A DNA stretch of 64,000 bases from a phage. The stretch is taken from NCBI GenBank assembly GCA_024449565.1, contig GCA_024449565.1_4810.1. The stretch is one strand, 5' to 3'. Positions within the stretch are counted from its first letter, which is position 1; each line of letters opens with the position of its first letter. Below, piece by piece: positions 151 through 19,479 of the stretch. Made by a program: the position numbers and the translations under genes. The notes beneath the pieces were generated by a model. That model saw only the letters and a list, made by a program, of their open reading frames with translations. It did not search any database and had not been told where the DNA came from.

Positions 151-184
151 CGTGAAATCCTGCGGCAATCCATTGCCAGGCGAT

Positions 185-322
185 TCAGTGAATATTAAAA
201 AGCACTCCAGCAACTAAAACGCCAATCAGCATTGAGTCATAAACAGCCCATTTCCAAGAAAGCAAAGAGTTGCAATTAATATTTCGCACTTTAACATAAC
301 GTGACTGAATAATCTTTTGCAT
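185..322 (-). CDS. small hydrophobic protein (45 aa, below the ORF-track cutoff)
   Basis: ATG at 322 preceded by AAAGAGGAAG Shine-Dalgarno; translation MQKIIQSRYVKVRNINCNSLLSWKWAVYDSMLIGVLVAGVLFNIH with hydrophobic C-terminus. Confidence 0.35.
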   Translation of the reverse strand: MQKIIQSRYVKVRNINCNSLLSWKWAVYDSMLIGVLVAGVLFNIH

Positions 323-394
323 AACTTCCTCTTTAGTTCATATCAAATTAATAATTGCACAGTTTAAATTGCGCTTATTTACAACTATCTTAAT

Positions 395-1246: not shown

Positions 1247-1247
1247 A

Positions 1248-3623
1248 TCAACCTTGCTTCGGTGAATTAGTAGGATTATTGAGTGCTCCATATGCTTGAG
1301 AGCAATCACCTTTCAACCACTCCTTGAATGAGTTTACATCTAATTCATGGATTGAATCGAATCCGTTCCAACCGTTACCAAATGATGCCTGATAAGCTTC
1401 TTTCGCTTCTTCTGCTGAATCGAATCCAAGCATACACTTGTGCTCATCAAATTCACCAGAATAATTATCATTTTGGTTAACGATGAATACTTTAGGAGAC
1501 TTCATATTTGGGCCAACAAAACAGTCGACTTCATCACCATCAGCACCCTTGGTGCCTTTGATGAATCCGTAGTGGTGCGGCATTTTGACTGCCCATTCAC
1601 CATCAAGGCTGTTACCCCTACGAATGCTGTTGCGAGGATTCTCGATGCCAAGGATCATCCCGTGCAACTTCATCTTAGGCAGCGACGCGGCATCCATCTT
1701 CCCTACGTTGTGGCGTAAGTTGATGACGTGTCCTTTAACGCTTGGAAGGGTAGACGGTTGCACCGACCGTGAATCTTTTTGAGGGTCAAAATCCACATCC
1801 TGACCCTCTTTCAGGTAGTAATCCGCAATACCCTCCAGACCTTCTTTCAACTGCGTTAGGACATCAACCTGATGGCTTGATTCATCATCGGTATCGTCCA
1901 TGTTGATTTCGACAGGCGCTTTGTCAGGGTTTTCCGCCAACTCACCACGCGCGGCACCCTCTGGCATAATACCTGTTTCGCTATAGAACTGGCCGCCCAT
2001 CTTAACGACATCAGCTTTCGCCTGTTCAATAGCGGCCTTACCTTGCAGGACTTCACCAGCAGACTTGCCAAGCAATGCCATATTCTCTGGAGACATCCCT
2101 GGGGTTTCTTCTGCTGCGTCTTCCGGCAGACGGTTGTAGCCGCTGTTTTTGTCGTCTTTGATGCGGTCGCGCTCTTCATCAGGAGAAATGACGCCAGCAT
2201 CAATAAGAGTTTTGCCAGTGTTGGCTCGCTTATCATTGATTTCTGCAAGTTGAGTAGCAGTAAGTGAGCCAACTGGTTCCCATGCAACCTTAACATCGAC
2301 GTCCACCCCTTCTGATTTGAGAAGGATTTTGTAATGGCGGTCGAGAATTTTTGTCAGGTCATGCTGCTGGCACGTTTCCAACTCTTCGTGATAGCTGACC
2401 ATCTCGAATTCACCAGTGGCGTTAAAGCCTTTTGGCGAAGTCCCAAGCAGTTTGGTCGACGGAACTTTTGCGATTGCGGCCACAAGCTGGTACTGGTTCA
2501 TGATGATACTGTCGAAGTCTGACAAGTTGATGTCAAACTGGTCCATCTCTTCTTTTTGGCCAAGCACTTTGACTGCATAGTTGTCGCGGTACTTGATCCA
2601 CATCATCAGACGTTCTGCAAAAGACCGCTCATTGGCAATAGCCTTGTCAACGTCGGTCCGCAGCGTCGTTGTACGCTTGGACATCGCCAGCAATGGCGCT
2701 TCGTTAGCGGTACGTTCAGCGGCATAGATGCGTTCATAAATCTGCTGAGTCAGAGGAATGCCGCCGTAAATATAAGTCGGCTTGAGAATATCAGCTGGCT
2801 CATCATTGCGCAAGATGATGAGGTGACTTCGATGATAACGTTGTCCGCTGATCACCCAGTATTCTGGATCATAGAAGTGCTGTGATGCAGGGTCTGCGGT
2901 ATTTTCAGACGTCAAAAATGGCATCATCCAATAAGGGTCAACCTGAATGATTCCCTTATAAGACCCCTTTGTCACACCATCAATGTTAAAAGGCTTGCTG
3001 TAATATTCTGGGTCATCGCTACGCACATCAAATATGATGACGCGGATACCAAAAATATTTTTGAATCGTTCGGCTTCAACTAAGTGCTCTTTGATATTAA
3101 ATTCTTTATCAATTTGCTTTAGGCGTTCGCTTGCCTGCACTGACAATTCTGACTCAGAACTGGATTTGACTTCCCAACCTTTACGGACCGCATCGCGGCC
3201 TACCATGGAACACGCCTTGTTCACCAGCCAATGCTGTGCGATGATGGCACAAGCTTGATAGCCGATGAATGACTGTGACAAATACCAGTTTTGAAGTTGA
3301 ATAGGTACTGTGTATGGGTTGACCTGCCCTTCTGAACTAATGTTCTTTAAGGCATTGTCCATAACTTTTTTGGATACTGTTGCGGAATCGACTGAACGGC
3401 CTTTTATGATAGCAACACCGTCGCCATTAATATCAGGCTCATATAAAGGGAAGTCATCAACCGTTTTAAAGGTCGGTCGATTGCTTTCAGTCTTTTCCCA
3501 GCGTTGACCGCTGCCGCGCCTTTCAAGGCGTTCAAACGGTGCCAATGGGTCGCCTGGCGGCATCTCCGCTGGTTCGGCTTCTGGTTGCGTCTTCTCCCAG
3601 AGTTTTATGCCAAGAATTTTCAT
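1248..3623 (-). CDS. portal protein with C-terminal inorganic-pyrophosphatase-like domain
   Basis: Large ORF between terminase and Mu F-like gene; ATG at 3623 with AGGTGG SD (track ORF begins at an upstream TTG); C-terminal about 190 aa contain MPHHYGFIKGTKGADGDEVDCFV and AEEAKEAYQASF, matching the family I pyrophosphatase core. Confidence 0.6.
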   Translation of the reverse strand: MKILGIKLWEKTQPEAEPAEMPPGDPLAPFERLERRGSGQRWEKTESNRPTFKTVDDFPLYEPDINGDGVAIIKGRSVDSATVSKKVMDNALKNISSEGQVNPYTVPIQLQNWYLSQSFIGYQACAIIAQHWLVNKACSMVGRDAVRKGWEVKSSSESELSVQASERLKQIDKEFNIKEHLVEAERFKNIFGIRVIIFDVRSDDPEYYSKPFNIDGVTKGSYKGIIQVDPYWMMPFLTSENTADPASQHFYDPEYWVISGQRYHRSHLIILRNDEPADILKPTYIYGGIPLTQQIYERIYAAERTANEAPLLAMSKRTTTLRTDVDKAIANERSFAERLMMWIKYRDNYAVKVLGQKEEMDQFDINLSDFDSIIMNQYQLVAAIAKVPSTKLLGTSPKGFNATGEFEMVSYHEELETCQQHDLTKILDRHYKILLKSEGVDVDVKVAWEPVGSLTATQLAEINDKRANTGKTLIDAGVISPDEERDRIKDDKNSGYNRLPEDAAEETPGMSPENMALLGKSAGEVLQGKAAIEQAKADVVKMGGQFYSETGIMPEGAARGELAENPDKAPVEINMDDTDDESSHQVDVLTQLKEGLEGIADYYLKEGQDVDFDPQKDSRSVQPSTLPSVKGHVINLRHNVGKMDAASLPKMKLHGMILGIENPRNSIRRGNSLDGEWAVKMPHHYGFIKGTKGADGDEVDCFVGPNMKSPKVFIVNQNDNYSGEFDEHKCMLGFDSAEEAKEAYQASFGNGWNGFDSIHELDVNSFKEWLKGDCSQAYGALNNPTNSPKQG

Positions 3624-3728
3624 TGTTAACGCCACCTGACAGTGAAAGGGAATCAATCTATATTATAAATATTCATGTGTTTGTAAGCAAATGATATGTA
3701 TGGTGATCATAAATAGTTCATAAAATAT

Positions 3729-3757
3729 TTTGCTTTTGTATCATTTTGAGTTATATT
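3729..3757 (+). promoter_or_regulatory. sigma70-like promoter TTTGCT-17-TATATT
   Basis: Hexamers with 17-bp spacer about 30 nt upstream of the 3786 ATG. Confidence 0.4.
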
Positions 3758-3785
3758 TTAGTTAACCAAACGAAAGGAGATTGAA

Positions 3786-4202
3786 ATGAGCACAACAATT
3801 GTATTTGTCGTCCTACACAACGGCGAAGTCGTTAACGTATGCGAATATGAAGAACTGGCAAAGGCCACTGCTGCGAGATACGAAGGTGCTACTATTGACC
3901 CGTGGATTTTAGATGCGCGCAGCGTCTTGCAGGCGACTTTAGATGAGTGGTTGTTGGGTCGCAAGGTCTATCCAGTAGACAACATCGACTCAATTCAAGG
4001 CGAAACAGTATACTTTGAAGATGAATGCGTTCGCGGCATCGGCAAATTTATGGGATTGTGCCCATCTTCATCCAAAAATAAATTCTATCGTATTCAAGTT
4101 GAAGAAAACGATATGTTTGATAAAGTCACGCGCTCGATTGTTCCTGGCGGCGGAACTCCAATCTTTATGGCAGAATCAGACATCAAGGGGATTATCAAAT
4201 GA
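3786..4202 (+). CDS. hypothetical protein
   Basis: AAAGGAG SD 7 nt upstream of ATG; plus-strand gene inserted between minus-strand terL and portal. Confidence 0.5.
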   Translation: MSTTIVFVVLHNGEVVNVCEYEELAKATAARYEGATIDPWILDARSVLQATLDEWLLGRKVYPVDNIDSIQGETVYFEDECVRGIGKFMGLCPSSSKNKFYRIQVEENDMFDKVTRSIVPGGGTPIFMAESDIKGIIK

Positions 4203-4438
4203 GAACTTTAACCGAACTCGATGTTTTGAAAGACGTTGCAGCGGCGCTGGGCGTTGAAGTCTCTGAAAAGTCGACACTGGGTGCTCTGCGTCGTGATTTA
4301 CTCGAAGCCGTCGACCGCAACGATTTTGATCGTAAGTGTTTGCAAAAGAAGATTCGACAGGCAGTAAGGGCGGGTAAGCGATTCCGTGCCAGGTCGTTTG
4401 CCGCAAGAAAGCTCGACCTTCAGCACGGAATGCTTTAA
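4199..4438 (+). CDS. hypothetical protein
   Basis: ATGA overlap with upstream gene; basic C-terminus; a 9-bp stem (4381-4389 / 4423-4431) lies in its 3' end. Confidence 0.4.
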   Translation: MRTLTELDVLKDVAAALGVEVSEKSTLGALRRDLLEAVDRNDFDRKCLQKKIRQAVRAGKRFRARSFAARKLDLQHGML

Positions 4439-4441
4439 TTG

Positions 4442-5902
4442 TTAAAGGTTAGAGAAGAAGCCGGATGCTGCAACAATTGGTTTCATCAACGCCATGATTG
4501 CTGCGTCCGCTTTGTTAGGCGATTTGACTCCACGCTTTGCCATATCCTTTTTCGATTCAACTTTAAACTTACCAAGCACAGACGTGTCTTTGCGCGGCGC
4601 TGACATCTCAAAAAGAAATGTCTCAATTTCTTCCGCAGACCAAGCAGGAATCCCAAGTTCTGGAATGCCGTCTGTGTCGATGGAAATCAGCTCATCAGTC
4701 GGGTATACGGCCTGCCCTGTTGCATACTCATATGTCTTCCTGAATCGTTCGGCAATCTCAGTCCATTTTTGCGCTTTTATGTTTGCGAAATGGTCTTTAT
4801 TGAGTATTTCAACGTGTGGTAACTCAAGGAAGACGTCATCAGGATCATCAACAGCACCTTGCGCGTTGAACGCATTAAATTCGATTCTTGGGAATGTTGG
4901 ATTTTCATGGATTGCATACTCATTAAGCTCATCAAATTTTGAACCAGCAAATGCACCAACACCGATGGCGTCATAGGTAATTGATGCGCCGAATGTTAAT
5001 GCATCTTTCCAAACTCCGCTTGCGGACTTAAGCAATTCATCTTCCAGACCTTCCCATGTCTTGATGCCGCGCAATACGTTGCCCGTGACAAATGCTGTGG
5101 CGTTTAAGTCGTCGCCGTCGTCCGCCACGTCGAAGCCTATACGGTTAGACCCTGACAAGCTCCATCCCAGCGTAGGGTGTTTGTGGAGGTTTAGCGCGGC
5201 TTTGACGAATGCACGGTTGATTACAGATTTGTCGCCGCCAGTCTTCGGAACGCCGCCATAAACGTGCTCTGCCTTTTTTGGGTCGCGCTCGTACATGCCT
5301 GCGATAACGTCCAGCATTGTTTGCGACAAGAATGGATTATCTTGCCAGTTTATCTTTTTAACAATGGCATTCTTCGGCGGTCGCATAACAAAGTTCTGGT
5401 AGACAAAATCGGCCTCTTCATCAGGGTTAAAGATGATCCATATTTCTGACCCTTCTTTACGGATTGTTGGCTCAATAATGTCCCACTGTTCTTCAGTAAG
5501 CGCGTGCGCTTCTTCCAGCCAAAGTACGTCAACACCTTCCGTTGATTTGATTTCATCAACATTACGTGCGATACCATAAAATAGAAATTCAGATTTAGTT
5601 CTTTTATGTTCGATAGAGTTCTTTAATAAATTGAACTCATCTTTGAAATCAGAAATTTCTATTTTGTCTTTTAATAGAGTATATACAGATTCAGAAATCT
5701 TGTTCTGGAATTGTCGAACGCAAAGGAATTTTAATTTGAAGTTTGCCGCCAAATAAATAGCAAAACCAGCGGCATCATGCGATTTGGAAGATGCACGACC
5801 GCCGTATATTACTTTGTATCGCGCTTTCGTCTTCCAGACTTCTTTTAAAGCAGGATTCAACTGGTACATGACTTTCCAATTATGTGTTAGTATTTTATTC
5901 AT
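4442..5902 (-). CDS. terL: terminase large subunit
   Basis: Walker A GGRASSKS near N-terminus, ATPase plus nuclease two-domain length (486 aa), position upstream of portal. Confidence 0.9.
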   Translation of the reverse strand: MNKILTHNWKVMYQLNPALKEVWKTKARYKVIYGGRASSKSHDAAGFAIYLAANFKLKFLCVRQFQNKISESVYTLLKDKIEISDFKDEFNLLKNSIEHKRTKSEFLFYGIARNVDEIKSTEGVDVLWLEEAHALTEEQWDIIEPTIRKEGSEIWIIFNPDEEADFVYQNFVMRPPKNAIVKKINWQDNPFLSQTMLDVIAGMYERDPKKAEHVYGGVPKTGGDKSVINRAFVKAALNLHKHPTLGWSLSGSNRIGFDVADDGDDLNATAFVTGNVLRGIKTWEGLEDELLKSASGVWKDALTFGASITYDAIGVGAFAGSKFDELNEYAIHENPTFPRIEFNAFNAQGAVDDPDDVFLELPHVEILNKDHFANIKAQKWTEIAERFRKTYEYATGQAVYPTDELISIDTDGIPELGIPAWSAEEIETFLFEMSAPRKDTSVLGKFKVESKKDMAKRGVKSPNKADAAIMALMKPIVAASGFFSNL

Positions 5903-5910
5903 ATTATAGT

Positions 5911-5939
5911 TTGCTTGTACAATCTATATCAAGTAAAAT
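5911..5939 (+). promoter_or_regulatory. sigma70-like promoter TTGCTT-17-TAAAAT
   Basis: Hexamers with 17-bp spacer; about 40 nt upstream of an intrinsic terminator. Confidence 0.35.
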
Positions 5940-5978
5940 TATGATTCCAGCTTAGTAGTGGATAAAGGGTGATCTTTC

Positions 5979-6006
5979 GGCCAGATTCTTTCTGGCCATT
6001 TTTTTT
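5979..6006 (+). terminator. rho-independent terminator
   Basis: GGCCAG-ATTCTTT-CTGGCC hairpin followed by an 8-T run. Confidence 0.55.
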
Positions 6007-6026
6007 GATTAAAATTCACAAAAAGT

Positions 6027-6054
6027 TTGCCTTTCTGAAATTCTGCATTATAAT
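6027..6054 (+). promoter_or_regulatory. sigma70-like promoter TTGCCT-16-TATAAT
   Basis: Near-consensus hexamers about 27 nt upstream of the 6081 ATG. Confidence 0.5.
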
Positions 6055-6080
6055 CATATTAACTCAAAACCGGAGGTAAT

Positions 6081-6296
6081 ATGAAACTCATCGACCGCGC
6101 CATCAAAGCCATTGATAATCACTCCACAGCGATTGCTTTCGTAATGGGATTTTGTTTCACTGCTGCGTTTGGCGACGTTCACACATTCAAGTCTGTCATC
6201 TTGTGTTGGTCCATTTGGTCACTTATTTCTCTGGTTTTGATTCTTCCGATGACGTGGCTTGTTCTTACTTGTCTTGAATCTCAAGGTGAAGACTGA
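6081..6296 (+). CDS. small membrane protein, two predicted TM helices (holin-like topology)
   Basis: GGAGGT SD; two hydrophobic segments in 71 aa. Confidence 0.45.
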   Translation: MKLIDRAIKAIDNHSTAIAFVMGFCFTAAFGDVHTFKSVILCWSIWSLISLVLILPMTWLVLTCLESQGED

Positions 6297-6517
6297 TGAG
6301 ACTATCAATCAAAGAGCGGGCAAAGCGGCCCAAAAGGAGTGAGCCAAAGGCCAAATACACATGCGTTGGCGGACCGTTCGACGGTCAAGTGGTGTGGCTT
6401 TCAAAATCTAATCCATCGACGGTTGAGTTCAGCCTTCGTGGAATGCGCGGCAGATACCTGCTAAATAGAGAAACAAGTGGCAGCACATTTGTGGAGTGGA
6501 AAGAAAATGGCAAATGA
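6296..6517 (+). CDS. hypothetical protein
   Basis: Start overlaps upstream stop; AGGTGAAG SD. Confidence 0.4.
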   Translation: MRLSIKERAKRPKRSEPKAKYTCVGGPFDGQVVWLSKSNPSTVEFSLRGMRGRYLLNRETSGSTFVEWKENGK

Positions 6518-6740
6518 ATTAACCTTAACGGTGCCAAAAGAAGTGCTAGACAAGGCATATGCAGATTCTGTAAAAGAATTAGCCGTAGTGCTTGGAATTG
6601 AAAGTGAATTCAACGTTCAGCTTCAATTCCTAAAAGATACTCTTCAAATCAAAGAGAATAGAGAGGCTGGCGGCGGTGCGCCTTTAGCTTTGGCAATAAT
6701 CTATGCGGGATTAATTTTGAAGTCTGGAGATGAACTGTGA
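6507..6740 (+). CDS. hypothetical protein
   Basis: Start trimmed to ATG MANELTL with GGAGTGGA SD. Confidence 0.4.
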   Translation: MANELTLTVPKEVLDKAYADSVKELAVVLGIESEFNVQLQFLKDTLQIKENREAGGGAPLALAIIYAGLILKSGDEL

Positions 6741-6936
6741 ATCGTTGGTGCAGTTGGAAGTTGAAACGTCTTGCCTGGGCCAATGCCGCCAATTCTGCTG
6801 GTGTCATCACCGCTGGCGTTGGGTCGGTATGGGATGGCGAAGGCCGTTGGGACTCGCTGTGTGGCACGCGCCTATTCTTTCGCGTAAAATAATTATCGCC
6901 CTTCCCGAAATGGGAAGGGAATTTAAAGAGGTTATC

Positions 6937-7278
6937 ATGAACAACACTTTGTCACAACTGTTAATCTGGACTATCGCTGCTATCATCGGCACCGTTATTA
7001 TGATGTCAAGTGCAAAGGCTGAAACGGATATTTGCGGCAGACTTATTTCTGAAAACGGCGAAATTTATTATGGCAACTCAAAAGGTGATTATATATCGCC
7101 TGAAGTTTGCGCTCAGAAGAAAGCAGAAATGCAAAAGCAGTATCATGAAGATCAATCTATATCTCAAGCCGCGCTGATTGAATTAAGTATATCAGCCATC
7201 ATCTTTCTAATCGTTTTTATGCTCATTATTAAACCAAATAATGGCAGCCACCGTCATATTCCTCTCAAAAGAAATTAA
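6937..7278 (+). CDS. small membrane or secreted protein
   Basis: Start trimmed to ATG MNNTLSQ with AAAGAGG SD; N-terminal hydrophobic signal-like segment and C-terminal TM segment. Confidence 0.45.
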   Translation: MNNTLSQLLIWTIAAIIGTVIMMSSAKAETDICGRLISENGEIYYGNSKGDYISPEVCAQKKAEMQKQYHEDQSISQAALIELSISAIIFLIVFMLIIKPNNGSHRHIPLKRN

Positions 7279-7316
7279 GGTTATAATACGGTTGTCGACA
7301 AAACGAGGACCGTAAA

Positions 7317-9227
7317 ATGCCAAGGCTAATATTCAAAAACAACTTTGAGGTCGCGCTCGCTCAGCCAGCGACGACTTCAGACACCACAATCACAATCCGC
7401 TCAGGGTCGGGCTTTCCGACCTTGGGCGCAAACGAGCGTGTAGTGGCGACAGTCGTCGACGCTGCAACAGGCCTCCAATTCGAAATCATCACTGTAACAG
7501 CCGTGGTTGGAAACGTGCTAACCGTGCAGCGTGCACAGGAAGGGACTGCAGCGCGTGCATGGAGCGTCGGAGATTTTTTATCCATAAGGGTGACGGCTGC
7601 CATATTGACAAGCACAGTAAGGAATTTTGGAGAATTACCTTCTGGAATAAACTTAAATGCCCTTACTGGTTCTTGGTTCGGTCAATACCAGCAGTCTTCT
7701 AATTCTGCGGCTTCGCAAGTTCTGAATTATCCTGTAGCCCAATCAGGCAGCCTTGAGGTTATTTGCTCGGCAAACAACTCTGGTGACCAATCTTGCACGC
7801 AAATATACAGCACGAATCCTGACAACAAGCAGTACAAAAGAACTTATAATTCAGAAACAAGCACATGGTCTACTTGGGCTAAAATATATAACTCTTCCGA
7901 CGTGATTCCAGTCTCCAATGGAGGGACTGGTGTTTCAGACATAGGATCAATAAGAAGAGCAATATTGGTGCAAGGACTTGAATGTAATGATCAAACTGGT
8001 CCCCAATCATACAACAGCTATCGTTCACCAAATTCAGCATACACATGGAAAATAGATAACTCAGGACTTGTGCAAGTCATAAAGACTTCTGATGGTTCTG
8101 CAGTGCCAATACCTATTGAATCAGGAGGGACTGGTGGAATAACTGCTTATAGTGCAAGGGTTAATCTCTCTTTGGATAGGCTGCGCCAAGAAGGTGCTTA
8201 TACAGAACTGAATTCTGCGAACGGAAGATATAGATTTCTTGTAAATGATTCAGGAGATTGGGGAGGTTTTGATGGTTCCACAAACGGCTGGAAGCCATTG
8301 GCAATAGCGCAGGGAGGGACTGGATCAACCACGTTGGAAGGAGCAAGAACGAATCTGAAAATTGACAGGTTCTTGCAAGGTGATATTGATACAAAAATAT
8401 CAACGCCTGATTCGCAATACAACTTTTTCATCACTGACGCTGATTGGGGTCTTTATGATGTAACATCACTAAATAGAGTTGCACTCCCAATTGTCAGCGG
8501 CGGCACAGGCGGAGTAACTGCTGTTGAATCTTGCAAGTCTCTCGCAGCGATGCATTATAAATACCCAGCGCAAACATCATTTGGGCAGCAATACATGGAG
8601 ACTGGGGTTGGATATTACAGCACTGATCAGTCACCAAGTCCAGGTGGAAGCGGTTCTCCATATAACTATGCCGAGATACTTACTATATCTGAATTTGGTA
8701 ATGGAGCTAACTATTCTCAAATCGCATTTTCAGTGTTGACGGAACAACCGCCGCGATACAGACAAAGGTTTGACTCTAATCCAAGGTTGACTAATTGGCG
8801 AGATTTCCTTATTCGCGATTTGAATACCAGCGTAGACAGCAACGGATTCATAAAAATTGCTTCACCAATAGTCAAAATAAGATTTGATGGATCATTTGAG
8901 CTGAACAGCGAGTCAGAAGGCTGCACAGTGTCAAGAGAAGGAAAGGGGCACTATTTGATAAGCGGTTGCCTCGGATTAAATAGTGATGCCGCCTGGGGAG
9001 GCGTTAACGGCGGCTTTGAAATTCCAGTTGATGTGAATAAACAGCCTAGAATTTGGCTTGACTATAAAGTGAATGAAGATGGATCAGTTGACGTATTCAC
9101 ATATCACAGGGTGCACAATGATGCCCCAGTTTTTGCAAGGAATAACCTTGAAGGTTATGCAGACGGAGACCCAATAGACATACCAAAGGATGCATTTATC
9201 TCTGTGAGGGTGCAAATGCCAAAATAA
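7317..9227 (+). CDS. tail fiber protein (GGTG-repeat type)
   Basis: Four repeats of the (S/E/A/V)-GGTG-x-(S/T) motif (SNGGTGVSD, ESGGTGGIT, AQGGTGSTT, VSGGTGGVT) typical of phage tail fibers; GAGGA SD. Confidence 0.7.
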   Translation: MPRLIFKNNFEVALAQPATTSDTTITIRSGSGFPTLGANERVVATVVDAATGLQFEIITVTAVVGNVLTVQRAQEGTAARAWSVGDFLSIRVTAAILTSTVRNFGELPSGINLNALTGSWFGQYQQSSNSAASQVLNYPVAQSGSLEVICSANNSGDQSCTQIYSTNPDNKQYKRTYNSETSTWSTWAKIYNSSDVIPVSNGGTGVSDIGSIRRAILVQGLECNDQTGPQSYNSYRSPNSAYTWKIDNSGLVQVIKTSDGSAVPIPIESGGTGGITAYSARVNLSLDRLRQEGAYTELNSANGRYRFLVNDSGDWGGFDGSTNGWKPLAIAQGGTGSTTLEGARTNLKIDRFLQGDIDTKISTPDSQYNFFITDADWGLYDVTSLNRVALPIVSGGTGGVTAVESCKSLAAMHYKYPAQTSFGQQYMETGVGYYSTDQSPSPGGSGSPYNYAEILTISEFGNGANYSQIAFSVLTEQPPRYRQRFDSNPRLTNWRDFLIRDLNTSVDSNGFIKIASPIVKIRFDGSFELNSESEGCTVSREGKGHYLISGCLGLNSDAAWGGVNGGFEIPVDVNKQPRIWLDYKVNEDGSVDVFTYHRVHNDAPVFARNNLEGYADGDPIDIPKDAFISVRVQMPK

Positions 9228-9235
9228 TTCACTCA

Positions 9236-9260
9236 AGGCGCTGAAAAGCGCCTTTACTTT
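9236..9260 (+). terminator. putative intrinsic terminator
   Basis: AGGCGC-TGAAAA-GCGCCT hairpin followed by a T-rich tract after the tail fiber stop. Confidence 0.4.
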
Positions 9261-9310
9261 ATGCGCTATTAAGTTATACTCATTATACGTTAACAAGTGA
9301 GGTGAATGAA

Positions 9311-9592
9311 ATGAAATTTGAAGACATCGACAAGGCCCAAAAAGCAAAGGCGCTGCCTAAATATGTCATCTGTGGTATTGACCCTGAAGATAACCGCTTG
9401 GTTTTCTTAAAGCAAGTTGATAGCAATGAATCTGGCGACGCAGCTAATTGGTGCACCCCTTTGTTTGAGACAGCAGAAGAAGCCCAGAAGGTATTGTCAG
9501 AAAGCAATTTACCTAAACACTACAGTGTCGTTTCACAAGATGACATGGCAAAATTAGTGTTTAATTTTTATGGATATGGGAGAAGATTCTAA
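9311..9592 (+). CDS. hypothetical protein
   Basis: Start trimmed to ATG at 9311, 6 nt after GAGGTG SD. Confidence 0.45.
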   Translation: MKFEDIDKAQKAKALPKYVICGIDPEDNRLVFLKQVDSNESGDAANWCTPLFETAEEAQKVLSESNLPKHYSVVSQDDMAKLVFNFYGYGRRF

Positions 9593-9801
9593 TGGAAATT
9601 AAATTATTGTCTGATTTCGTAAAAAGTATTGAAGCCAAAGGCATGACAATCAAGGCTAAGAAAGGCGGCCTTGTTTGCATCGATAAGCAACAAAGTGATC
9701 AGAGTATATCTCTTGATGATATCAAGACAATGCAAAAGCTCAATAAGAAAGGTGATTTACACAAGTTCTTAACGGATATTGGAGCGGTGGACAATGGATA
9801 A
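9592..9801 (+). CDS. hypothetical protein
   Basis: Start overlaps upstream stop; GGGAGAAG SD. Confidence 0.45.
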   Translation: MEIKLLSDFVKSIEAKGMTIKAKKGGLVCIDKQQSDQSISLDDIKTMQKLNKKGDLHKFLTDIGAVDNG

Positions 9802-9892
9802 AGAGGCACGGCGCTTTGCATTTTGGGGCACGGTTTGTGTTGTCGCGCTGTTTGGAATTGCTTATGCAATTGTTTACGCTGCAGCGGCATAG
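9794..9892 (+). CDS. small membrane peptide (32 aa, below track cutoff)
   Basis: GGAGCGGTGG SD then ATG; MDKEARRFAFWGTVCVVALFGIAYAIVYAAAA with one TM segment; its stop abuts the next ATG. Confidence 0.3.
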   Translation: MDKEARRFAFWGTVCVVALFGIAYAIVYAAAA

Positions 9893-9894
9893 TT

Positions 9895-10290
9895 ATGATC
9901 ATCGATATTGAAAAGGCACTCAAGCGTGAATTGACGCCAGGTGCGACCCCTGGCGAAGAAGCCTACTACCGACCGAAAGCGCAGCGCACCAATGAGATTC
10001 CGGTTGTTAAGCGGACAGTGAATAAGAACGGTCAGAGGTCGCGACCGCGCTCTATCCGGTCCGGTGAAAGGCTGAAAACGATTCGCCAGTGTCTACAACG
10101 ACTCGAAATCATGGGTTGCCGCGCTTATATCGACCCTGATGGAAAGGTTCTGGTGAGAATTGGCAATAGTACACAACTACAAGACGGATTGCCCTGTGGC
10201 GAATCCAGACCCATAGCAAAGACCGACCGTGTGGCTACTGGCCGCGAGATTGAGGAAAGTTGGTTGGGTGCTTTCTTATTAAAATATTGA
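9895..10290 (+). CDS. hypothetical protein
   Basis: Start trimmed to in-frame ATG MIIDIEK adjacent to upstream stop. Confidence 0.4.
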   Translation: MIIDIEKALKRELTPGATPGEEAYYRPKAQRTNEIPVVKRTVNKNGQRSRPRSIRSGERLKTIRQCLQRLEIMGCRAYIDPDGKVLVRIGNSTQLQDGLPCGESRPIAKTDRVATGREIEESWLGAFLLKY

Positions 10291-10297
10291 GGATTAT

Positions 10298-10546
10298 ATG
10301 AATCAAAATGAATCAGTAGCGTTCTTACAATGGCTGGAAGGTGTTGTGGAGTATTACGCTCCAAAAGACCGTTTCATCTTTCAAGGCAAAAGTTATAAGC
10401 GCAAAGGACAGGCCCAGAAAGCTGCGCGCAAGTACTGGAAAGAAGTTTATTCAGAGTTCTTTCAGCAGATGGGCATCATCGGCTCGACCGTATCCGGCGA
10501 CCCAGCACAGTTGGTATCGATTGATGAATCCAATCGTCACAATTAA
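10298..10546 (+). CDS. hypothetical protein
   Basis: GAGGAT SD 5 nt upstream of ATG. Confidence 0.45.
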   Translation: MNQNESVAFLQWLEGVVEYYAPKDRFIFQGKSYKRKGQAQKAARKYWKEVYSEFFQQMGIIGSTVSGDPAQLVSIDESNRHN

Positions 10547-10621
10547 TAAATCGATTTGAATGCCGCGCTATGCGGCTTTATTATAGTTATTGTTAATCAC
10601 CCAAATATTGAAGGTAATGAT

Positions 10622-11002
10622 ATGTCAAATAAAAATGATTCTGTGAGTCACACATATACTAAAGGCAGCGGCATTGCTTTTGGTTCCAGCATCAAAATTG
10701 ACGCTCCACCTTGCTATTCTGATGGATTGGAAGTTGGCAACCGCGACTTAACATGGGTTTTACGTCGCCAATCCGATTTAGAAGAGAAGCTGGAAAATAT
10801 TGAGCGTTCTCTTGAAAGTCTTCGCGACCAGCTTTTTGGTTGTCCTGAAGATGAGTCAAAACCTGAATCATATGCAGCCAATCGCGGTTTGATTGATAAT
10901 ATGCTTGCTATTACCGCTCGATCAATTGGTAAAACTGTGTCCATTGAATCATTGATCAGCCAGATTGCGGATGGCTTTGGTGATGCCCATAAGAGCGAAT
11001 AG
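10622..11002 (+). CDS. hypothetical protein
   Basis: Start trimmed to ATG MSNKND with GAAGGTAA SD. Confidence 0.45.
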   Translation: MSNKNDSVSHTYTKGSGIAFGSSIKIDAPPCYSDGLEVGNRDLTWVLRRQSDLEEKLENIERSLESLRDQLFGCPEDESKPESYAANRGLIDNMLAITARSIGKTVSIESLISQIADGFGDAHKSE

Positions 11003-11032
11003 TGGGTGGATGTTGCTTTAACCGTGAATCGT

Positions 11033-11059
11033 GGGTCGCTTAGTGCGGCCCTTTATTTT
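11033..11059 (+). terminator. putative intrinsic terminator
   Basis: GGGTCGC-TTAGT-GCGGCCC hairpin followed by TTTATTTT. Confidence 0.45.
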
Positions 11060-11062
11060 GCC

Positions 11063-11134
11063 TGCCGCGCAGGAGTGTACTGCCGCGCAGGAGTGTACTG
11101 CCGCGCAGGAGTGTACTGCCGCGCAGGAGTGTAC
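11063..11134. repeat. perfect tandem repeat, 4 x 18 bp (TGCCGCGCAGGAGTGTAC)
   Basis: Four identical head-to-tail units read directly from the sequence; a partial fifth unit follows. Confidence 0.9.
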
Positions 11135-11755
11135 TGCAAATTTCCTGTGGGTACAAAATAGTACGGTACTGTCTAGGACTTTTTCTTTGAAAAGTTAGTG
11201 GACCAAATGTGTCGTATTTTGATTAGTGTACCGCAAATTCCATCAAGTAGCAAAACGCACCAAAAGACCCATGCCCTAAAAACCACACGAACGCAATAAT
11301 CAATCGCCGTTACAGTTTCCAGCGTTACAATTAGAAAGCGAATGATTCGATGCATAATAATATGAAGCATAATGATTCGAAAGCTAATGGTTGCGCGTAG
11401 GATGATATCGGGAGGGATTATTCGAGATGCGTGTAATTTCGCATGCGTACTATTTTCGGGCGAAGGGTCGGCATATTCTTCGTTTTAGCTCGGAACGAAG
11501 GGAAAGTTTTGCGCCTTTATAAAACAACGACTTACGCGACCCGCCTTAACGGTCCGATATAGGTGTCTATATAAAACAAGGACTTACGCGATGTTCTCCA
11601 TTTAACGTAATACCTGTTATGCGAACTAAGGCGCATCTCGACGAAGATTGTGCGACGACGAAGGGAAGGATAAAGGAGTTTTCGCGTAGGAGCTCATCGA
11701 GATAGGGACGAAGAAAAGCCGCGACTAAGCGCGGCCTATTAGTAACGGAAGGGTA

Positions 11756-12046
11756 TTATAAGGAGACGATTTTAAAGAAAGAGTAACGGCCTTCGCCTTC
11801 GGATACCGCGATATATTCGCCGCCGAACTCCGTAGCAAAATAAACCTTGCCTTCGATAGTAACGCGGAAGGTAGAAATATCTTCCTCTTCGAGTTCCGTA
11901 AATTCGCTAAAATCGATAGGACTATGAAGCTCCTCGATAGTCGCATCTACGTTAAAGAGATAAACGTTTTTAAGTTTTTCGCCAAATACGTTAGAGTTTT
12001 CGGAAGTTTCGACGCGAGCGGAACGGATAGCGGCCAAAGTAATCAT
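11756..12046 (-). CDS. small acidic protein, paralog family member 1
   Basis: AGGAGA SD; 96 aa, acidic; N-terminus MITLAAIRSARVE and NVDATIEE resemble those of the 12682 and 12154 genes. Confidence 0.5.
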   Translation of the reverse strand: MITLAAIRSARVETSENSNVFGEKLKNVYLFNVDATIEELHSPIDFSEFTELEEEDISTFRVTIEGKVYFATEFGGEYIAVSEGEGRYSFFKIVSL

Positions 12047-12153
12047 AATATTCTCCTAGTTAGTCGGGAGGGTAGCGACCTATTCGCTACCTCATCCCCT
12101 CTCGATATAAAACATTATAGTCTTAGTGTACGAAGAAGTAAAGCACTTTTTCG

Positions 12154-12456
12154 TTATTCTGCGATAAAATATTTATAAGCTTTATCGCCTTCTACGTCGA
12201 TATACTCGACGATAATTAACGCTTCGCCGCGCGGCGTAACCGTCTCGATAAGGGTAACGGCTTCGTCGTCGGTCTTCGCGAAGCGGATTGCGCTACGTTC
12301 GGCGTACTTAATATCATCGAAGGAAAGGCCGACGAAAGCGACCGCGCGGACCTTAATAATGGTAGATTCTAGTTCCGCGTTAACGGCAGCGATAAGAGAG
12401 CGAACGGTTAAACGGTCTTCGTCGTAAGTAAGGATAGAAGAGATTAAAGTAGTCAT
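12154..12456 (-). CDS. small acidic protein, paralog family member 2
   Basis: Start trimmed to ATG MTTLISS with GGGAG SD; same N-terminal pattern as neighbours. Confidence 0.45.
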   Translation of the reverse strand: MTTLISSILTYDEDRLTVRSLIAAVNAELESTIIKVRAVAFVGLSFDDIKYAERSAIRFAKTDDEAVTLIETVTPRGEALIIVEYIDVEGDKAYKYFIAE

Positions 12457-12681
12457 AATAAAACTCCCGATGCTAGTAGAAGGAAGGGCCATCACCCGTC
12501 TCGATACAAACAAGTATACGCGAGTGTACGAAGAAGTAAAGAAAAAAGATAAAATAATTTATCTCATTTTTATCGAAAAAGTGCTTTACTTTTTTCTACA
12601 CTATATTATAATGTACTCATATCGGGACGGGATGAGTTAACGAATAGGTCGTTAACGCCCGTCGAGAACTAGGAGTTTAAA

Positions 12682-12966
12682 ATGGCTATTCTTAACGTTT
12701 CTTCCATCCGTAACGCTATCGTCGAGAACTACGGCGTAAAACAAATTTTATCCGAAGTTTACGCCGCGAACGTAGACCAAACTATCGAGGCGGGTGGGGT
12801 AACGGTCGCCGAGGCTTTTAAACTTTACGCGGCGCTACCGGAATCGGACCGCGAAGCCTTCGAAGTAAACGTTAACGGATACTTCTTCGAAGCGGTCGAA
12901 ATCGGTAACATCTTACTCGTTATGGGCGAAGAAGAATTTGATACCTTCTCCCTCGTCGAAGCGTAA
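12682..12966 (+). CDS. small acidic protein, paralog family member 3
   Basis: AGGAG SD; MAILNVSSIRNAIVE and NVDQTIEA shared with the 11756 gene. Confidence 0.5.
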   Translation: MAILNVSSIRNAIVENYGVKQILSEVYAANVDQTIEAGGVTVAEAFKLYAALPESDREAFEVNVNGYFFEAVEIGNILLVMGEEEFDTFSLVEA

Positions 12967-13046
12967 GAGAGGATTTTTAGAGCGTCGTGCGCGGCGCTTT
13001 AATAAAATTCTTTCGCGCCTAGCGCCCTAACAAATAGGAGTTCATT

Positions 13047-13673
13047 ATGGTTAGCTTAAATCGTTTCTCGACTAGCGGCGACGTTATCGCAACTAAGACC
13101 GCCGACCTCGTTGCATTTTATAATGCAAATTCAGGTTCGAAGCCGATTAAAAAATTTGCGGACCGCCGGACCGCCGAGACTCGCGTAATCGCGCTAATCG
13201 AGTCCTTAAACGCGCTCGATGAGCCGTCCAACGAATCGCCAATCCCCGACGCGAAGCCGCGCGAGGAAGTGTCCAGCGATGTAAAAACGCATAAGGCGCG
13301 TGCGGTCGTTAAAAAGGCAGAGCCGACGCAGGAAGAACTCGACGCGATGAGCGATGAAGAGTATGAAGCCTTCGTTAAGAGCGGCTTAAACGATAGTGCA
13401 AATTGCGTAGTGCAAAATGGAACTCCTTCCCATCGCCGTTCGAATAGCGAAGGTATTGCAAAAAGTTGGGACAATAAGGAAGTGGCGCAAAAGCGTCTCA
13501 CCCGTAACGGCGTTATGGTCGAGGGTGTAGGAGAGTTCAAATCGGTCCGCGCAGCTTTCGCCGCGCTGGGATTACCGGATAGCAAGCACATTCGCTTCCG
13601 TATGAAGCTTAAGGAAGCTGGGCGCTTGAACTTCGAGTTCGGCAACAAGTCCTTTACCTTCCAGATTATCTAA
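13047..13673 (+). CDS. hypothetical protein
   Basis: AGGAG SD; 208 aa; contains two in-frame copies of the TAGTGCAAA(A)T motif. Confidence 0.5.
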   Translation: MVSLNRFSTSGDVIATKTADLVAFYNANSGSKPIKKFADRRTAETRVIALIESLNALDEPSNESPIPDAKPREEVSSDVKTHKARAVVKKAEPTQEELDAMSDEEYEAFVKSGLNDSANCVVQNGTPSHRRSNSEGIAKSWDNKEVAQKRLTRNGVMVEGVGEFKSVRAAFAALGLPDSKHIRFRMKLKEAGRLNFEFGNKSFTFQII

Positions 13674-13723
13674 TCGAATGGCGGCCCTTCGGGGTCGCTT
13701 TTCATAGTGCAAATTGGTGGCTT

Positions 13724-13987
13724 ATGAATACGCTTATTCTCATCGCTACGTTGTCCATCGGAAGTGGTCGCACCTTATCCCTTTATGACCATAGTGCAAA
13801 TTGCGCCTATCCTACGCGCGTTGCGGCGATAGTTAATAGTGCAAATAAGATGCTATTCGAGACTTGCTGGAGGGTCGATAACGAGAAAGGTCGGGTAGTC
13901 TTAGGCTATAGTGCAAATCTGCTGGTGGAGTCGTTCGATTGGACGGTTGAAGGTCGTAAATTGTTACGTAAAGTGACTAAAAGATGA
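13724..13987 (+). CDS. hypothetical protein (questionable; ORF spans three motif copies)
   Basis: ORF with GGTGG upstream, but three ATAGTGCAAAT copies fall in-frame inside it, so coding status is uncertain. Confidence 0.3.
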   Translation: MNTLILIATLSIGSGRTLSLYDHSANCAYPTRVAAIVNSANKMLFETCWRVDNEKGRVVLGYSANLLVESFDWTVEGRKLLRKVTKR

Positions 13988-14101
13988 CTTATAATAATAC
14001 ACTTTCTAACGCGTTTATGGTTACAACCTTCCCCGTCGTATTACCGATGGCCCTAGAAGTGGAGAAAATGTGTTCTAGGGCCGTTTTATAGTGCAAATTG
14101 G

Positions 14102-14575
14102 CTAGTGGCGGGAGAATTGCTCTCCTTCTTTGGCCGCCTCTCCAAAATCCTTGTAGAAATCATCCATGGAACGGCCCATTTTACTATTGCCATTTTCATC
14201 AATCATCGTGATGCCGTAGATGATATTCAGTTCACGAATGGCATTAAGTTTGGCTGATGCCGCGACTTCTGGATCACGCACAAGCTTCACTAGATTGTGG
14301 ATGGAACTCTTTACGCTCCACAATTCCTTCAATGGCATCTCTTCCATACGCTTTTTGTAGCGCATCTTGTAGTACGGATTGCGCTGAGTGCACAGGATTC
14401 GCTGGCCAGTGTAGTTATCGGTCGCAACCTCCATGCCAAATACTAGTGCAAAAGCTGCGCGCATGTCATGGCCTTGAATAACAAGGTCAATGAACTCATC
14501 GAATAATGCCTGATTATGCTCTGCAAATCGCGGGTCTTCAAAGTCTTCAGGCATTGCTACATAATCTTGACTCAT
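14102..14575 (-). CDS. hypothetical protein (possible HTH DNA-binding; small-terminase-like is speculative)
   Basis: Start trimmed to ATG MSQDYVA; the start codon lies inside a motif copy; helix-rich N-terminal segment FIDLVIQGHDMRAAFALVFG. Confidence 0.4.
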   Translation of the reverse strand: MSQDYVAMPEDFEDPRFAEHNQALFDEFIDLVIQGHDMRAAFALVFGMEVATDNYTGQRILCTQRNPYYKMRYKKRMEEMPLKELWSVKSSIHNLVKLVRDPEVAASAKLNAIRELNIIYGITMIDENGNSKMGRSMDDFYKDFGEAAKEGEQFSRH

Positions 14576-14802
14576 AGTGCAAATCCCATAGTGCAAATTA
14601 ATAGTGTGAATTATACAATGAATGAACATTATATTCAAGTGCAGATTGATGTTCAAATTGGCTGTAAACGTACATAAATCATAGTGCTAAATGAATAGCG
14701 GACCGTGATGCGTGGTGTACTGTTTGATACGTATAAAAGAAATCCATCCCTTTCGCCGCTTGCTATGCAAATCAATGACTTAGCCGCTGCTGGCTGGTTG
14801 AA

Positions 14803-15090
14803 GCGTATCATGACGTATCATCCGTATTGCCGCAAGTCTTTGTTTTTACTTATATCTTACGGATAATACGTATAAATATAAGTTCAGTATAAGTATGAGG
14901 ATGTAGAAAAAAATTAATTTAAATTAATTCAAAATGGAGTTAATTGTTTTTTTCAAAGTTGTATAAAGTATAGCGGCGACGCGTATCATCCGTATCATCC
15001 GTAAGATGTACCATTGAACCCAGTCGCGGCGCACCATAGAAGTGTGTGGAGTGAACTACGGATAGGTCCAAATCTTACGTCATTATACGT
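14803..15090. repeat. Iteron-like repeat region B (homolog of element A)
   Basis: GCGTATCATGACGTATCATCCGTATTGCCGCAAG, inverted TTACGGATAATACG, then TATAAAGTATAGCGGCGACGCGTATCATCCGTATCATCCGTAAGATG (near-identical to 56-100) and CGTCATTATACG; AT-rich tract at about 14897-14961. Confidence 0.6.
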
Positions 15091-15374
15091 TTAAATTCTA
15101 TGCGTAAGGTTAGCCAGCTAACTATATCTCCTTTTTAATTTCAAGCGGCAATCCCAGAGACGGCGCACCATGTACACAAACACACCACGGTACACGCTCC
15201 AATTCCTAGTGATTTCCTCTCCAATCCCACAACACCACAGTACAATAATCTTCCAAAACCGCACACATATTCAAGACGCAAAATTCACGTCACAATCCTC
15301 ACTACCAACGACACTCTAATAGATTTACACAAATCAATCGATTTATCCGATAATAAAGACTCACATTCCACAGG

Positions 15375-15399
15375 CAAATAAAAAGGGCCAATCGGCCCT
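15375..15399 (-). terminator. rho-independent terminator (minus strand)
   Basis: GGGCC-AATC-GGCCC hairpin with T-run on the minus strand, directly after the stop of the 15417 gene. Confidence 0.55.
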
Positions 15400-15416
15400 C
15401 TTAACATTAATCATAA

Positions 15417-19135: not shown

Positions 19136-19137
19136 AA

Positions 19138-19440: not shown

Positions 19441-19479
19441 TCTCCTTTGCTTGATGAACTAAGTATAATACAGGCAAAT

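What the first reader, a model, noticed from the sequence alone, without database searches (positions are those of the whole stretch)
7317..9227. GGTG-repeat tail fiber gene placed on the opposite strand next to the packaging module, far from the tail operon
This fiber gene lies among plus-strand small genes just right of terL, about 37 kb from the tail genes, which carry a second unrelated HxH-type fiber at 46831. Two distinct receptor-binding proteins at separate loci suggest dual receptor specificity or a horizontally acquired host-range cassette.
Basis: inference. Interest (0 to 1): 0.45.

Follow-up and report, generated by a model that had tools for sequence, protein, structure and literature searches.

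The report
Swappable tail fibre gene of Wifcevirus
This is the known, highly variable second tail-fibre gene of an E. coli Wifcevirus phage. It carries a rare recombinant version whose outer two-thirds came from fibres of unrelated phage groups, so it is largely ordinary.

Summary
The ORF at 7317..9227 (+, 636 aa) is real and intact. It has four GGTG motifs spaced 62-68 aa apart. It is transcribed divergently from terL.

The window is a Wifcevirus myophage genome. All 29 public Wifcevirus genomes have a fibre gene at this position. The two-fibre layout was described by Humolli et al. 2025. Orthologues of both fibres were detected by mass spectrometry in vB_Eco4M-7 preparations.

The HxH fibre at 46831..48615 is conserved across the genus (89-97% DNA identity). 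Its N-terminus is the orthologue of the Pbunavirus Pa193 gp47 baseplate fibre. The terL-adjacent fibre is the hypervariable one.

The allele is what is unusual here. Only codons 1-124 (the anchor) are genus-conserved. Codons about 125-634 are a cassette lying strictly inside the ORF. More than 100 other Wifcevirus alleles carry gp12-like and T5-like receptor-binding domains plus an S74 chaperone. This one instead has a pyocin-type knob, GGTG repeats and a PF25670 C-terminal domain. That part resembles the distal half of Kuravirus proximal long fibres, without their docking region and without a partner gene. Only AV128 and two metagenomic proteins share the architecture.

Most likely it is an unbranched host-range fibre. 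The receptor is unknown.

The parts
6027..6054 (+). Sigma-70-like promoter match (TTGCCT-16-TATAAT) in the divergent terL/fibre-operon intergenic region.
   Evidence: 10 of 12 hexamer positions match. This is a consensus match only and has not been shown to function.
6081..7278 (+). Four small plus-strand ORFs that precede the fibre gene in the same apparent transcription unit: 6081..6296, 6296..6517, 6507..6740 and 6937..7278. The last one has a signal-peptide/TM-like sequence.
   Evidence: Orthologous ORFs are annotated in AV128, ManiWeber and vB_Eco4M-7. The vB_Eco4M-7 gp28 annotation notes a transmembrane domain and signal peptide.
7317..9227 (+). Variable lateral tail fibre gene (636 aa), a rare PF25670-type allele.
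7317..7688 (+). Genus-conserved N-terminal virion-attachment (anchor) domain, aa 1-124.
   Evidence: It is 87-98% identical in all Wifcevirus records. Columns in alignment A2 are near-invariant. phmmer to the phage GP4 tail fibre in the portal-tail complex, 8jov_1, gives E 2.5e-7. The DNA homology breakpoint against ManiWeber and Mansfield falls at 7682-7687.
7617..7916 (+). Pyocin-type knob domain, aa about 101-200.
7905..8606 (+). Shaft with four GGTG motifs (aa 202, 270, 333, 395) in repeat units of about 65 aa. The middle part, 8066..8600, is a nested mosaic segment that differs from AV128.
   Evidence: Searches give the motif counts and shuffles. One search shows repeat matches to phiEco32 gp14 aa 471-572. 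One search shows aa 261-500 are 58-86% identical to P0004 but only 37-60% identical to the AV128 type. One search shows the DNA homology gap at 8066-8600.
8823..9224 (+). C-terminal PF25670 (Phage_tail_C_2) domain, aa 503-636. It is the putative distal tip and receptor-binding domain.
   Evidence: Pfam E 3.6e-58. It is 70% identical to the C-terminus of SU10 gp12 / phiEco32 gp14. The AF2 model has pLDDT about 90 for aa about 517-636. There is no convincing solved structural relative.
9235..9254 (+). Terminator-like GC hairpin 8 nt after the fibre stop codon. A promoter-like site follows at 9253..9280.
   Evidence: These are consensus matches only.
46831..48615 (-).
   Evidence: Eight HxH motifs. 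The N-terminal 372 aa are homologous to the Pbunavirus Pa193 gp47 tail fibre, 9b45_2, at E 5.9e-32. The locus is 100% covered at 89-97% identity in all 29 Wifcevirus records.
48626..51364 (-). Baseplate wedge protein (912 aa, DUF2612 N-terminus) with a C-terminal extension of about 700 aa that Pbunavirus lacks. It is a candidate docking partner for the extra fibre (speculative).
   Evidence: Pfam DUF2612. Only aa 4-185 match Pa193 gp46 and E217 gp45, which are 500-504 aa long.

Best explanation
The gene encodes the variable, baseplate-attached lateral tail fibre of a Wifcevirus myophage. This fibre is the genus's main host-range determinant.

**Modular build of the protein**
- aa 1-124: a genus-conserved N-terminal anchor that fixes the (presumably trimeric) fibre to the virion.
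- aa about 101-200: a pyocin-type knob.
- aa about 197-430: a shaft of about 65-aa units, each carrying a GGTG motif.
- aa about 430-636: a distal part ending in a PF25670 domain.

**What differs from other Wifcevirus fibres.** Everything after codon about 124 is an exchangeable cassette. Most Wifcevirus genomes carry a 'T-shaped' module here: a gp12-like RBD1, a T5-like RBD2 and an S74 intramolecular chaperone. This phage, like AV128, has instead acquired by recombination the distal branch of a Kuravirus-type proximal long fibre. That branch comes without the region proposed to dock a second fibre and without a partner gene.

**Predicted mechanism (inferred).** The fibre should be unbranched, with the PF25670-tipped end contacting a variable surface structure, most probably O-antigen or another glycan. 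The conserved HxH fibre is the orthologue of the Pbunavirus baseplate fibre. It would then make the constant, later contact that triggers contraction.

**Shown:** ORF integrity, synteny, domain homologies, cassette breakpoints, rarity of the allele, and absence of a partner gene.

**Inferred:** trimer state, baseplate attachment site, receptor class, and sequential use of the two fibres.
For: **Genus and locus**
- The window is 92-94% identical to Wifcevirus genomes.
- A fibre gene lies in the same place in AV128, ManiWeber, Mansfield and vB_Eco4M-7.

**Published context**
- PMC11990801 describes one conserved gp37-like HxH fibre in the tail locus plus one variable fibre with a conserved N-terminus.
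- In PMC7048862, MS detected vB_Eco4M-7 gp27 and gp63.

**Variable versus conserved**
- The fibre gene is covered at 80% or more in 0 of 29 records.
- The HxH locus is fully covered in 29 of 29.

**Cassette limits**
- Homology breaks at 7682-7687 and resumes at 9220-9222.

**Domains**
- PF25670.
- SU10 gp12 C-terminus, E 9e-62.
- GP4 fibre N-terminus and R2 pyocin knob.

**No distal partner**
- No gp12-like, T5-like or S74 sequence occurs anywhere in the window.
- None occurs in AV128 positions 1..61446.
- AV128 is collinear with the window and was isolated as a plaque-forming phage on ESBL120 (PMC10844046).

**Docking region absent**
- The window fibre aligns only to phiEco32 gp14 from about aa 471 onwards.
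- The docking region proposed by Golomidova 2016 is gp14 aa 239-508. It lies in the conserved N-terminal half.

**PF25670-ended fibres that stand alone elsewhere**
- A T7-like contig has a fibre with a Phage_T7_tail N-terminus and PF25670 C-terminus, followed directly by terS and terL.
- Drexlerviridae phage MM01 has one with no partner.
- TrudiRoth has one followed only by a 35-aa remnant.

**Rarity**
- About 100 listed Wifcevirus-anchor protein clusters carry PF13884.
- Only P0001-P0003 carry PF25670.
Against: - There is no direct evidence that the PF25670-tipped part binds a receptor.
- The only tested homologue, EP335 gp12 fused to GFP, bound none of the strains tried (PMC8217332). The authors list technical explanations, but also the possibility that gp12 has no binding function.
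- The region aa 421-515 was predicted poorly as a monomer.
- In Kuravirus, and in the myovirus contig L008, PF25670 fibres are followed by an S74 fibre gene. A scaffold role is therefore not excluded.
- Promoter and terminator calls are consensus matches only.
- About 4 kb of the genome lies outside the window. By collinearity with AV128 this stretch holds head genes.
Confidence: 0.78

Rival explanations
1. The protein is a proximal half-fibre, a scaffold as in SU10 gp12 or phiEco32 gp14, that needs a separately encoded distal fibre to bind the host. The partner would then be outside the window, or lost, leaving a crippled fibre.
For: The closest characterised homologues of aa 197-635 are Kuravirus proximal long-fibre proteins. 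EP335 gp12 showed no cell binding. P0004, the closest relative of the middle part, is followed by an S74 fibre gene.
Against: - No homologue of a distal T-shaped fibre exists in the 64-kb window or in 61.4 kb of the collinear AV128 genome.
- The rest of AV128 holds head, portal and terL genes.
- The proposed docking region (phiEco32 gp14 aa 239-508) is not part of the acquired segment.
- AV128, which has the same architecture, is a viable isolate.
- T7-like and Drexlerviridae phages use PF25670-ended fibres with no partner.
Confidence: 0.1
2. The two fibres are alternative receptor-binding proteins that each open a different set of hosts, giving dual specificity.
For: Two sequence-unrelated fibres are encoded, and orthologues of both are detected in phage preparations. 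Phages with two independent receptor-binding proteins exist, for example SP6, which is cited in PMC11990801.
Against: - The HxH fibre is nearly invariant across phages isolated on different E. coli and Shigella hosts.
- It is the orthologue of the single Pbunavirus baseplate fibre.
- All host-associated variation sits in the other fibre.
- The BASEL authors likewise propose a mechanical or constant role for the conserved fibre.
Confidence: 0.1
3. The gene product is not a tail fibre of the virion. It could be, for example, a head fibre, a decoy, or a non-structural protein expressed from an early operon.
For: The gene lies among small ORFs of unknown function behind a sigma-70-like promoter, away from the tail genes. 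The MS samples in PMC7048862 also contained some non-structural proteins, so detection there does not prove virion incorporation.
Against: - The N-terminal anchor is homologous to a fibre resolved in the GP4 portal-tail complex.
- The knob is of the pyocin-fibre type.
- The C-terminal two-thirds are homologous to bona fide long tail fibres.
- The orthologue had the highest MS score of all vB_Eco4M-7 proteins.
Confidence: 0.02

Closest known systems
Wifcevirus variable 'T-shaped' tail fibre (ManiWeber Bas99_0109, called Gp114 in the paper; vB_Eco4M-7 gp27; ECML-117 gp24)
   Same: It occupies the same locus, divergent from terL, with the same flanking small ORFs. The N-terminal anchor is 87-91% identical over aa 1-124, followed by a knob and the first GGTG motif.
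   Different: Those proteins continue with a gp12-like RBD1, a T5-like RBD2 and an S74 (PF13884) intramolecular chaperone. The window protein has none of these and ends in PF25670.
Escherichia phage AV128 tail fibre WPK38425.1 (and metagenomic P0002, P0003)
   Same: It has the same architecture (Wifcevirus anchor, knob, GGTG shaft, PF25670) at the same locus. Identity is 95-100% over aa 1-200 and 78-95% over aa 501-636.
   Different: Identity is only 37-60% over aa 261-500. AV128 has one more GGTG unit (665/666 aa against 636). The window's middle part is closer to P0004, which comes from an unrelated myovirus contig.
Kuravirus long-tail-fibre proximal protein (SU10 gp12, PDB 7z47_D; phiEco32 gp14; EP335 gp12; AnnaHegner Bas87_0008)
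   Same: It shares the GGTG-repeat shaft and the PF25670 C-terminal domain. Identity is 52-55% over aa 197-635 and 70% over the last 134 aa.
   Different: The window protein lacks the adaptor-binding N-terminus and the conserved half (about aa 1-490) that includes the proposed docking region for the distal fibre. No distal fibre gene follows it.
Branched lateral tail fibres of T5-like phages DT57C and DT571/2 (LtfA/LtfB)
   Same: The logic is the same: a conserved anchor followed by an exchangeable C-terminal specificity region. In DT57C, recombination within ltfA switched the O-antigen specificity (PMC4728585).
   Different: LtfA ends in an S74 chaperone and carries a docked second fibre. The window fibre has neither.
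Stand-alone PF25670-tipped fibres of Drexlerviridae (MM01_00044) and of a T7-like contig (P0018)
   Same: They carry the same distal module (58-60% identity over aa about 326-635) as the last domain of a fibre that has no partner gene.
   Different: They have different N-terminal anchors (a Phage_T7_tail domain; a siphovirus lateral-fibre N-terminus) and belong to different virion types.

Membership tests
Wifcevirus terL-adjacent variable tail fibre (locus orthologue) | Position between the small plus-strand ORFs, divergent from terL, with conserved flanks. | tested here: met
   Synteny holds in AV128, ManiWeber, Mansfield and vB_Eco4M-7. Flanking DNA is 90-94% identical up to 7687 and from 9220 onwards.
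Wifcevirus terL-adjacent variable tail fibre (locus orthologue) | Conserved N-terminal anchor domain. | tested here: met
   aa 1-124 are 87-98% identical in Wifcevirus records. Columns in alignment A2 are near-invariant.
'T-shaped' dual-RBD fibre (Humolli et al. 2025) | A gp12-like RBD1, a T5-like RBD2 and a C-terminal S74 intramolecular chaperone (PF13884). | tested here: not met
   Pfam finds only PF25670. tblastn with the ManiWeber and AnnaHegner T-shaped fibres finds nothing beyond aa 241 of this ORF or elsewhere in the window.
Kuravirus-type proximal long-tail-fibre protein (SU10 gp12 / phiEco32 gp14) | C-terminal PF25670 domain preceded by a GGTG-repeat shaft. | tested here: met
Kuravirus-type proximal long-tail-fibre protein (SU10 gp12 / phiEco32 gp14) | Conserved N-terminal half with the adaptor-binding end and the proposed distal-fibre docking region (gp14 aa 239-508). 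| tested here: not met
   The alignment to gp14 covers only aa about 471-572 and 745-878. The N-terminal half is conserved between phiEco32 and AnnaHegner but is absent here.
Kuravirus-type proximal long-tail-fibre protein (SU10 gp12 / phiEco32 gp14) | An adjacent gene for a distal fibre that docks on it. | tested here: not met
   The downstream ORFs are 96 aa or shorter. There is no homologue in the window or in AV128.
Pyocin/phage fibre knob domain | Knob fold as in the R2 pyocin fibre. | tested here: met
Receptor-binding protein (functional class) | Demonstrated binding of the distal part to a host surface structure. | not testable with these tools
   The only published test of a homologue, EP335 gp12-GFP, was negative or inconclusive.
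T4 gp37-like HxH-tip fibre (the second fibre, 46831..48615) | Repeated HxH motifs in the distal part, with a conserved baseplate-proximal N-terminus. | tested here: met
   Eight HxH motifs lie at aa 455-580. The N-terminus matches Pa193 gp47 at E 5.9e-32. The fold of the tip was not modelled here.

The most novel reading that the evidence does not exclude
The GGTG-shaft plus PF25670 module may be a self-sufficient receptor-binding branch of a previously unrecognised fold class. It would move as a unit between podo-, sipho- and myoviruses. In this rare Wifcevirus lineage it replaces the dual-RBD/chaperone module and so retargets the phage to a different surface glycan. The extra fibre as a whole would be a Wifcevirus-specific addition to a Pbunavirus-type baseplate, docked on the roughly 700-aa extension of the wedge protein.
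Probability: 0.35. Interest if true: 0.4.

Novelty: new member of a known kind. Interest (0 to 1): 0.25.

Why it matters
For phage biology the result is mostly confirmatory. The odd placement and the two-fibre set are a genus trait that has already been described, and modular exchange of fibre tips is well known.

Three points have practical value:
1. The cassette limits are sharp: codon about 125 to the stop codon. This gives a ready design for host-range engineering of Wifcevirus phages, which are of interest because of their very short latent period.
2. The allele shows that a PF25670-tipped fibre can replace the S74-chaperone type on the same anchor. This argues that the uncharacterised PF25670 module is itself a functional distal end.
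3. The HxH fibre is the orthologue of the Pbunavirus fibre. This clarifies which of the two Wifcevirus fibres is ancestral, a relationship the BASEL paper left open.

Tried and rejected
- **NCBIfam scan.** The fibre, the two flanking small ORFs and the HxH fibre gave no hits.
- **Self-BLAST of the fibre.** It did not detect the about 65-aa repeats. They are visible only through the motif spacing and through matches to phiEco32 gp14 repeats.
- **Search for the source contig.** An exact look-up of P0001 found nothing on record. There is no match in 5,426 complete E. coli genomes.
- **Allele-specific chaperone (considered and rejected).** The downstream 96-aa ORF might have been a chaperone specific to this allele. 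It is 93-94% identical in genomes carrying the other fibre type, so it is not.
- **Foreign base composition (considered and rejected).** The cassette's GC is about 0.44, the same as its flanks.
Full report
**What the window is.** The first 25 kb match 29 phage records, all Wifcevirus (E. coli and Shigella myophages of 66-72 kb), at 92-94% identity. A protein 100% identical to the fibre, annotated from an internal GTG and therefore 42 aa short, comes from a 67,963-bp contig in an E. coli third-party-annotated assembly (P0001). The window therefore covers about 94% of a Wifcevirus genome.

**The observation.** ORF 7317..9227 (+) is intact and encodes 636 aa. It has a GAGGA ribosome-binding site. 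Its termini are the same as those of the full-length homologues in AV128 and ManiWeber.
- GGTG occurs at aa 202, 270, 333 and 395. Shuffles of the protein gave a mean count of 0.045 and never more than 2 in 20,000 trials.
- terL (PF04466) lies at 4442..5902 on the minus strand.
- The second fibre, 46831..48672 (-), carries eight HxH motifs and has no significant similarity to the first.

The minus-strand structural block starts with terL and wraps across the window ends to finish with the HxH fibre and the endolysin at 46178. The variable fibre is therefore divergent from the first gene of that block, and lies about 26.6 kb from the HxH fibre measured along it.

**Already known at genus level.** Every public Wifcevirus has a fibre gene at this place.
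- Humolli et al. 2025 (PMC11990801) describe two fibres. One is conserved, has a gp37-like HxH tip and is encoded in the tail locus. The other is a variable 'T-shaped' fibre with a conserved N-terminal attachment domain, a gp12-like RBD1, a T5-like RBD2 and an intramolecular chaperone. They state that the relationship between the two is unclear.
- Necel et al. 2020 (PMC7048862) noted that this gene is the main difference between close relatives. By mass spectrometry they detected gp27 (34 peptides, 80% coverage, the top score) and gp63 (13 peptides). I confirmed by synteny that these are the orthologues of the two window genes.

Those samples also contained some non-structural proteins.

**Conserved versus variable.** The HxH fibre, wedge and endolysin segment (46178..51364) is fully covered at 89-97% identity in all 29 records. 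The fibre gene at 7317 is covered at 80% or more in none of them, and only AV128 reaches 60%.

**Anatomy of this allele.**
- *aa 1-124.* This is the genus-conserved anchor, 87-98% identical across Wifcevirus. It is distantly homologous to the N-terminus of a fibre resolved in the phage GP4 portal-tail complex (8jov_1, E 2.5e-7; entry title). The same kind of N-terminus occurs in fibres of Bcep22-like, Ralstonia and other phages.
- *aa about 197-430.* These are the GGTG repeat units.
- *aa 503-636.* This is PF25670 Phage_tail_C_2 (E 3.6e-58). It is 70% identical to the C-terminus of SU10 gp12 and phiEco32 gp14.
- Gp12-like RBD1, T5-like RBD2 and S74 sequences are absent from the ORF and from the whole window.

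**Cassette boundaries.**
- DNA homology to ManiWeber and Mansfield runs through 7682-7687 and resumes at 9220-9222. That is from codon about 124 to the last two codons.
- Against AV128, homology runs to 8065 and resumes at 8601.
- In the gap (aa 261-500) the window protein is 58-86% identical to P0004, a fibre from an unrelated myovirus contig. It is only 37-60% identical to the AV128 type there.
- The gene is therefore a nested mosaic whose exchange points lie inside the ORF.

**Rarity.** Among the protein clusters that carry the Wifcevirus anchor in a 5.8-billion-protein search, about 100 have PF13884. Only P0001, P0002 and P0003 have PF25670. In GenBank phages it is 1 of 29 records (AV128).

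**Scaffold or receptor-binding end?** The best characterised homologues are Kuravirus proximal long-fibre proteins, onto which a distal T-shaped fibre docks (SU10, PMC9509320; EP335, PMC8217332; AnnaHegner).
- Golomidova et al. 2016 (PMC4728585) place the proposed docking region at phiEco32 gp14 aa 239-508.
- That part belongs to the N-terminal half, which is conserved between phiEco32 and AnnaHegner (74% identity over aa 1-~490).
- The window protein aligns only from about aa 471-490 onwards. It has therefore acquired only the branch beyond the junction.
- No partner gene exists in the window or in 61.4 kb of the collinear AV128 genome, and AV128 is a viable isolate.
- PF25670-ended fibres stand alone in a T7-like contig, where the fibre is followed directly by terS and terL. 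They also stand alone in the Drexlerviridae phage MM01 and in TrudiRoth, where only a 35-aa remnant follows.
- The same module is also fused to lambda-Stf-type N-termini (PF08400).

I infer that the module is a functional distal end and that the window fibre is unbranched. Against this, EP335 gp12-GFP bound no strain. In addition, the PF25670 fold has no solved relative. The receptor-binding role therefore remains an inference, and I give it roughly 60% on its own.

**Relationship of the two fibres.**
- The first 372 aa of the HxH fibre are homologous to the Pa193 (Pbunavirus) gp47 tail fibre from the baseplate structure 9b45 (E 5.9e-32).
- The neighbouring 912-aa protein matches Pa193 gp46 and E217 gp45 only over aa 4-185. 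Those proteins are 500-504 aa long.
- Hence the tail-locus fibre is the ancestral baseplate fibre. The terL-adjacent fibre is an additional one that the listed Pseudomonas hits do not link to Pbunavirus-sized genomes (not checked exhaustively).
- The roughly 700-aa extension of the wedge protein is a speculative docking site for the conserved anchor.

**Expression context.** A sigma-70-like promoter match lies at 6027..6054, upstream of four small ORFs and the fibre gene. A GC hairpin at 9235..9254 follows the stop codon, and a further promoter-like site lies at 9253..9280. These are consensus matches only.

By collinearity with Mansfield (window 9793..14935 corresponds to Mansfield 5122..1), the 3,673-bp terminal repeat that PhageTerm predicted for Mansfield would map to about window 11,260..14,935. 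The fibre unit would then lie about 2 kb inside the repeat and be transcribed towards that genome end.

**Verdict.** The finding is a rare recombinant allele of a known, published kind of gene, so interest is low to moderate.

Noticed in passing
window 11062..11137: There is a perfect 18-bp tandem repeat (CTGCCGCGCAGGAGTGTA, 4.2 copies). AV128, ManiWeber and Mansfield each have a single copy and the vB_Eco4M-7 locus has none. It lies about 100-200 bp outside the position that corresponds to the inner boundary of Mansfield's predicted terminal repeat.
   Followed up: partly
window 46831..48615 (-) and 48626..51364 (-): The N-terminus of the HxH fibre is the orthologue of the Pbunavirus Pa193 gp47 tail fibre. 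The adjacent wedge protein shares only its first about 185 aa with Pa193 gp46 and E217 gp45, and carries a roughly 700-aa extension of unknown function. The extension is a possible attachment site for the extra fibre.
   Followed up: partly
window 7317..7442: The public annotation of the identical protein (P0001, TPA E. coli NPY75_003173, 594 aa) starts at an internal GTG. It lacks the first 42 residues of the conserved anchor.
   Followed up: yes
window 9302..9592 (+): A 96-aa ORF lies directly downstream of the fibre terminator. It is conserved irrespective of fibre type. Its vB_Eco4M-7 orthologue (gp26, 10.5 kDa) was detected by MS with 62% coverage, so it may be a virion or fibre-associated protein.
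   Followed up: partly
window 6937..7278 (+): A small protein with an N-terminal signal-peptide-like segment and a C-terminal hydrophobic segment is encoded immediately upstream of the fibre gene in the same unit. It is conserved in the genus, and vB_Eco4M-7 gp28 is annotated with a TM domain and signal peptide. Its function is unknown.
   Followed up: no
window 6005..6013: Relative to vB_Eco4M-7 and Mansfield, the window lacks a segment of about 266 bp between terL and the first plus-strand ORF. In vB_Eco4M-7 that segment encodes gp32, a 7.8-kDa protein detected by MS.
   Followed up: no
window 29904..30743: This region has a strong AT skew (0.35) and GC of 0.50, with long ORFs on both strands. 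It probably encodes the low-complexity protein annotated as 'TolA protein' in vB_Eco4M-7, which was detected by MS there.
   Followed up: no
whole window: A virulent-type Wifcevirus genome appears as a 67,963-bp contig in an E. coli isolate assembly, yet the fibre gene has no match in 5,426 complete E. coli genomes. This suggests contamination or a carrier state in the sequenced culture rather than a prophage.
   Followed up: partly
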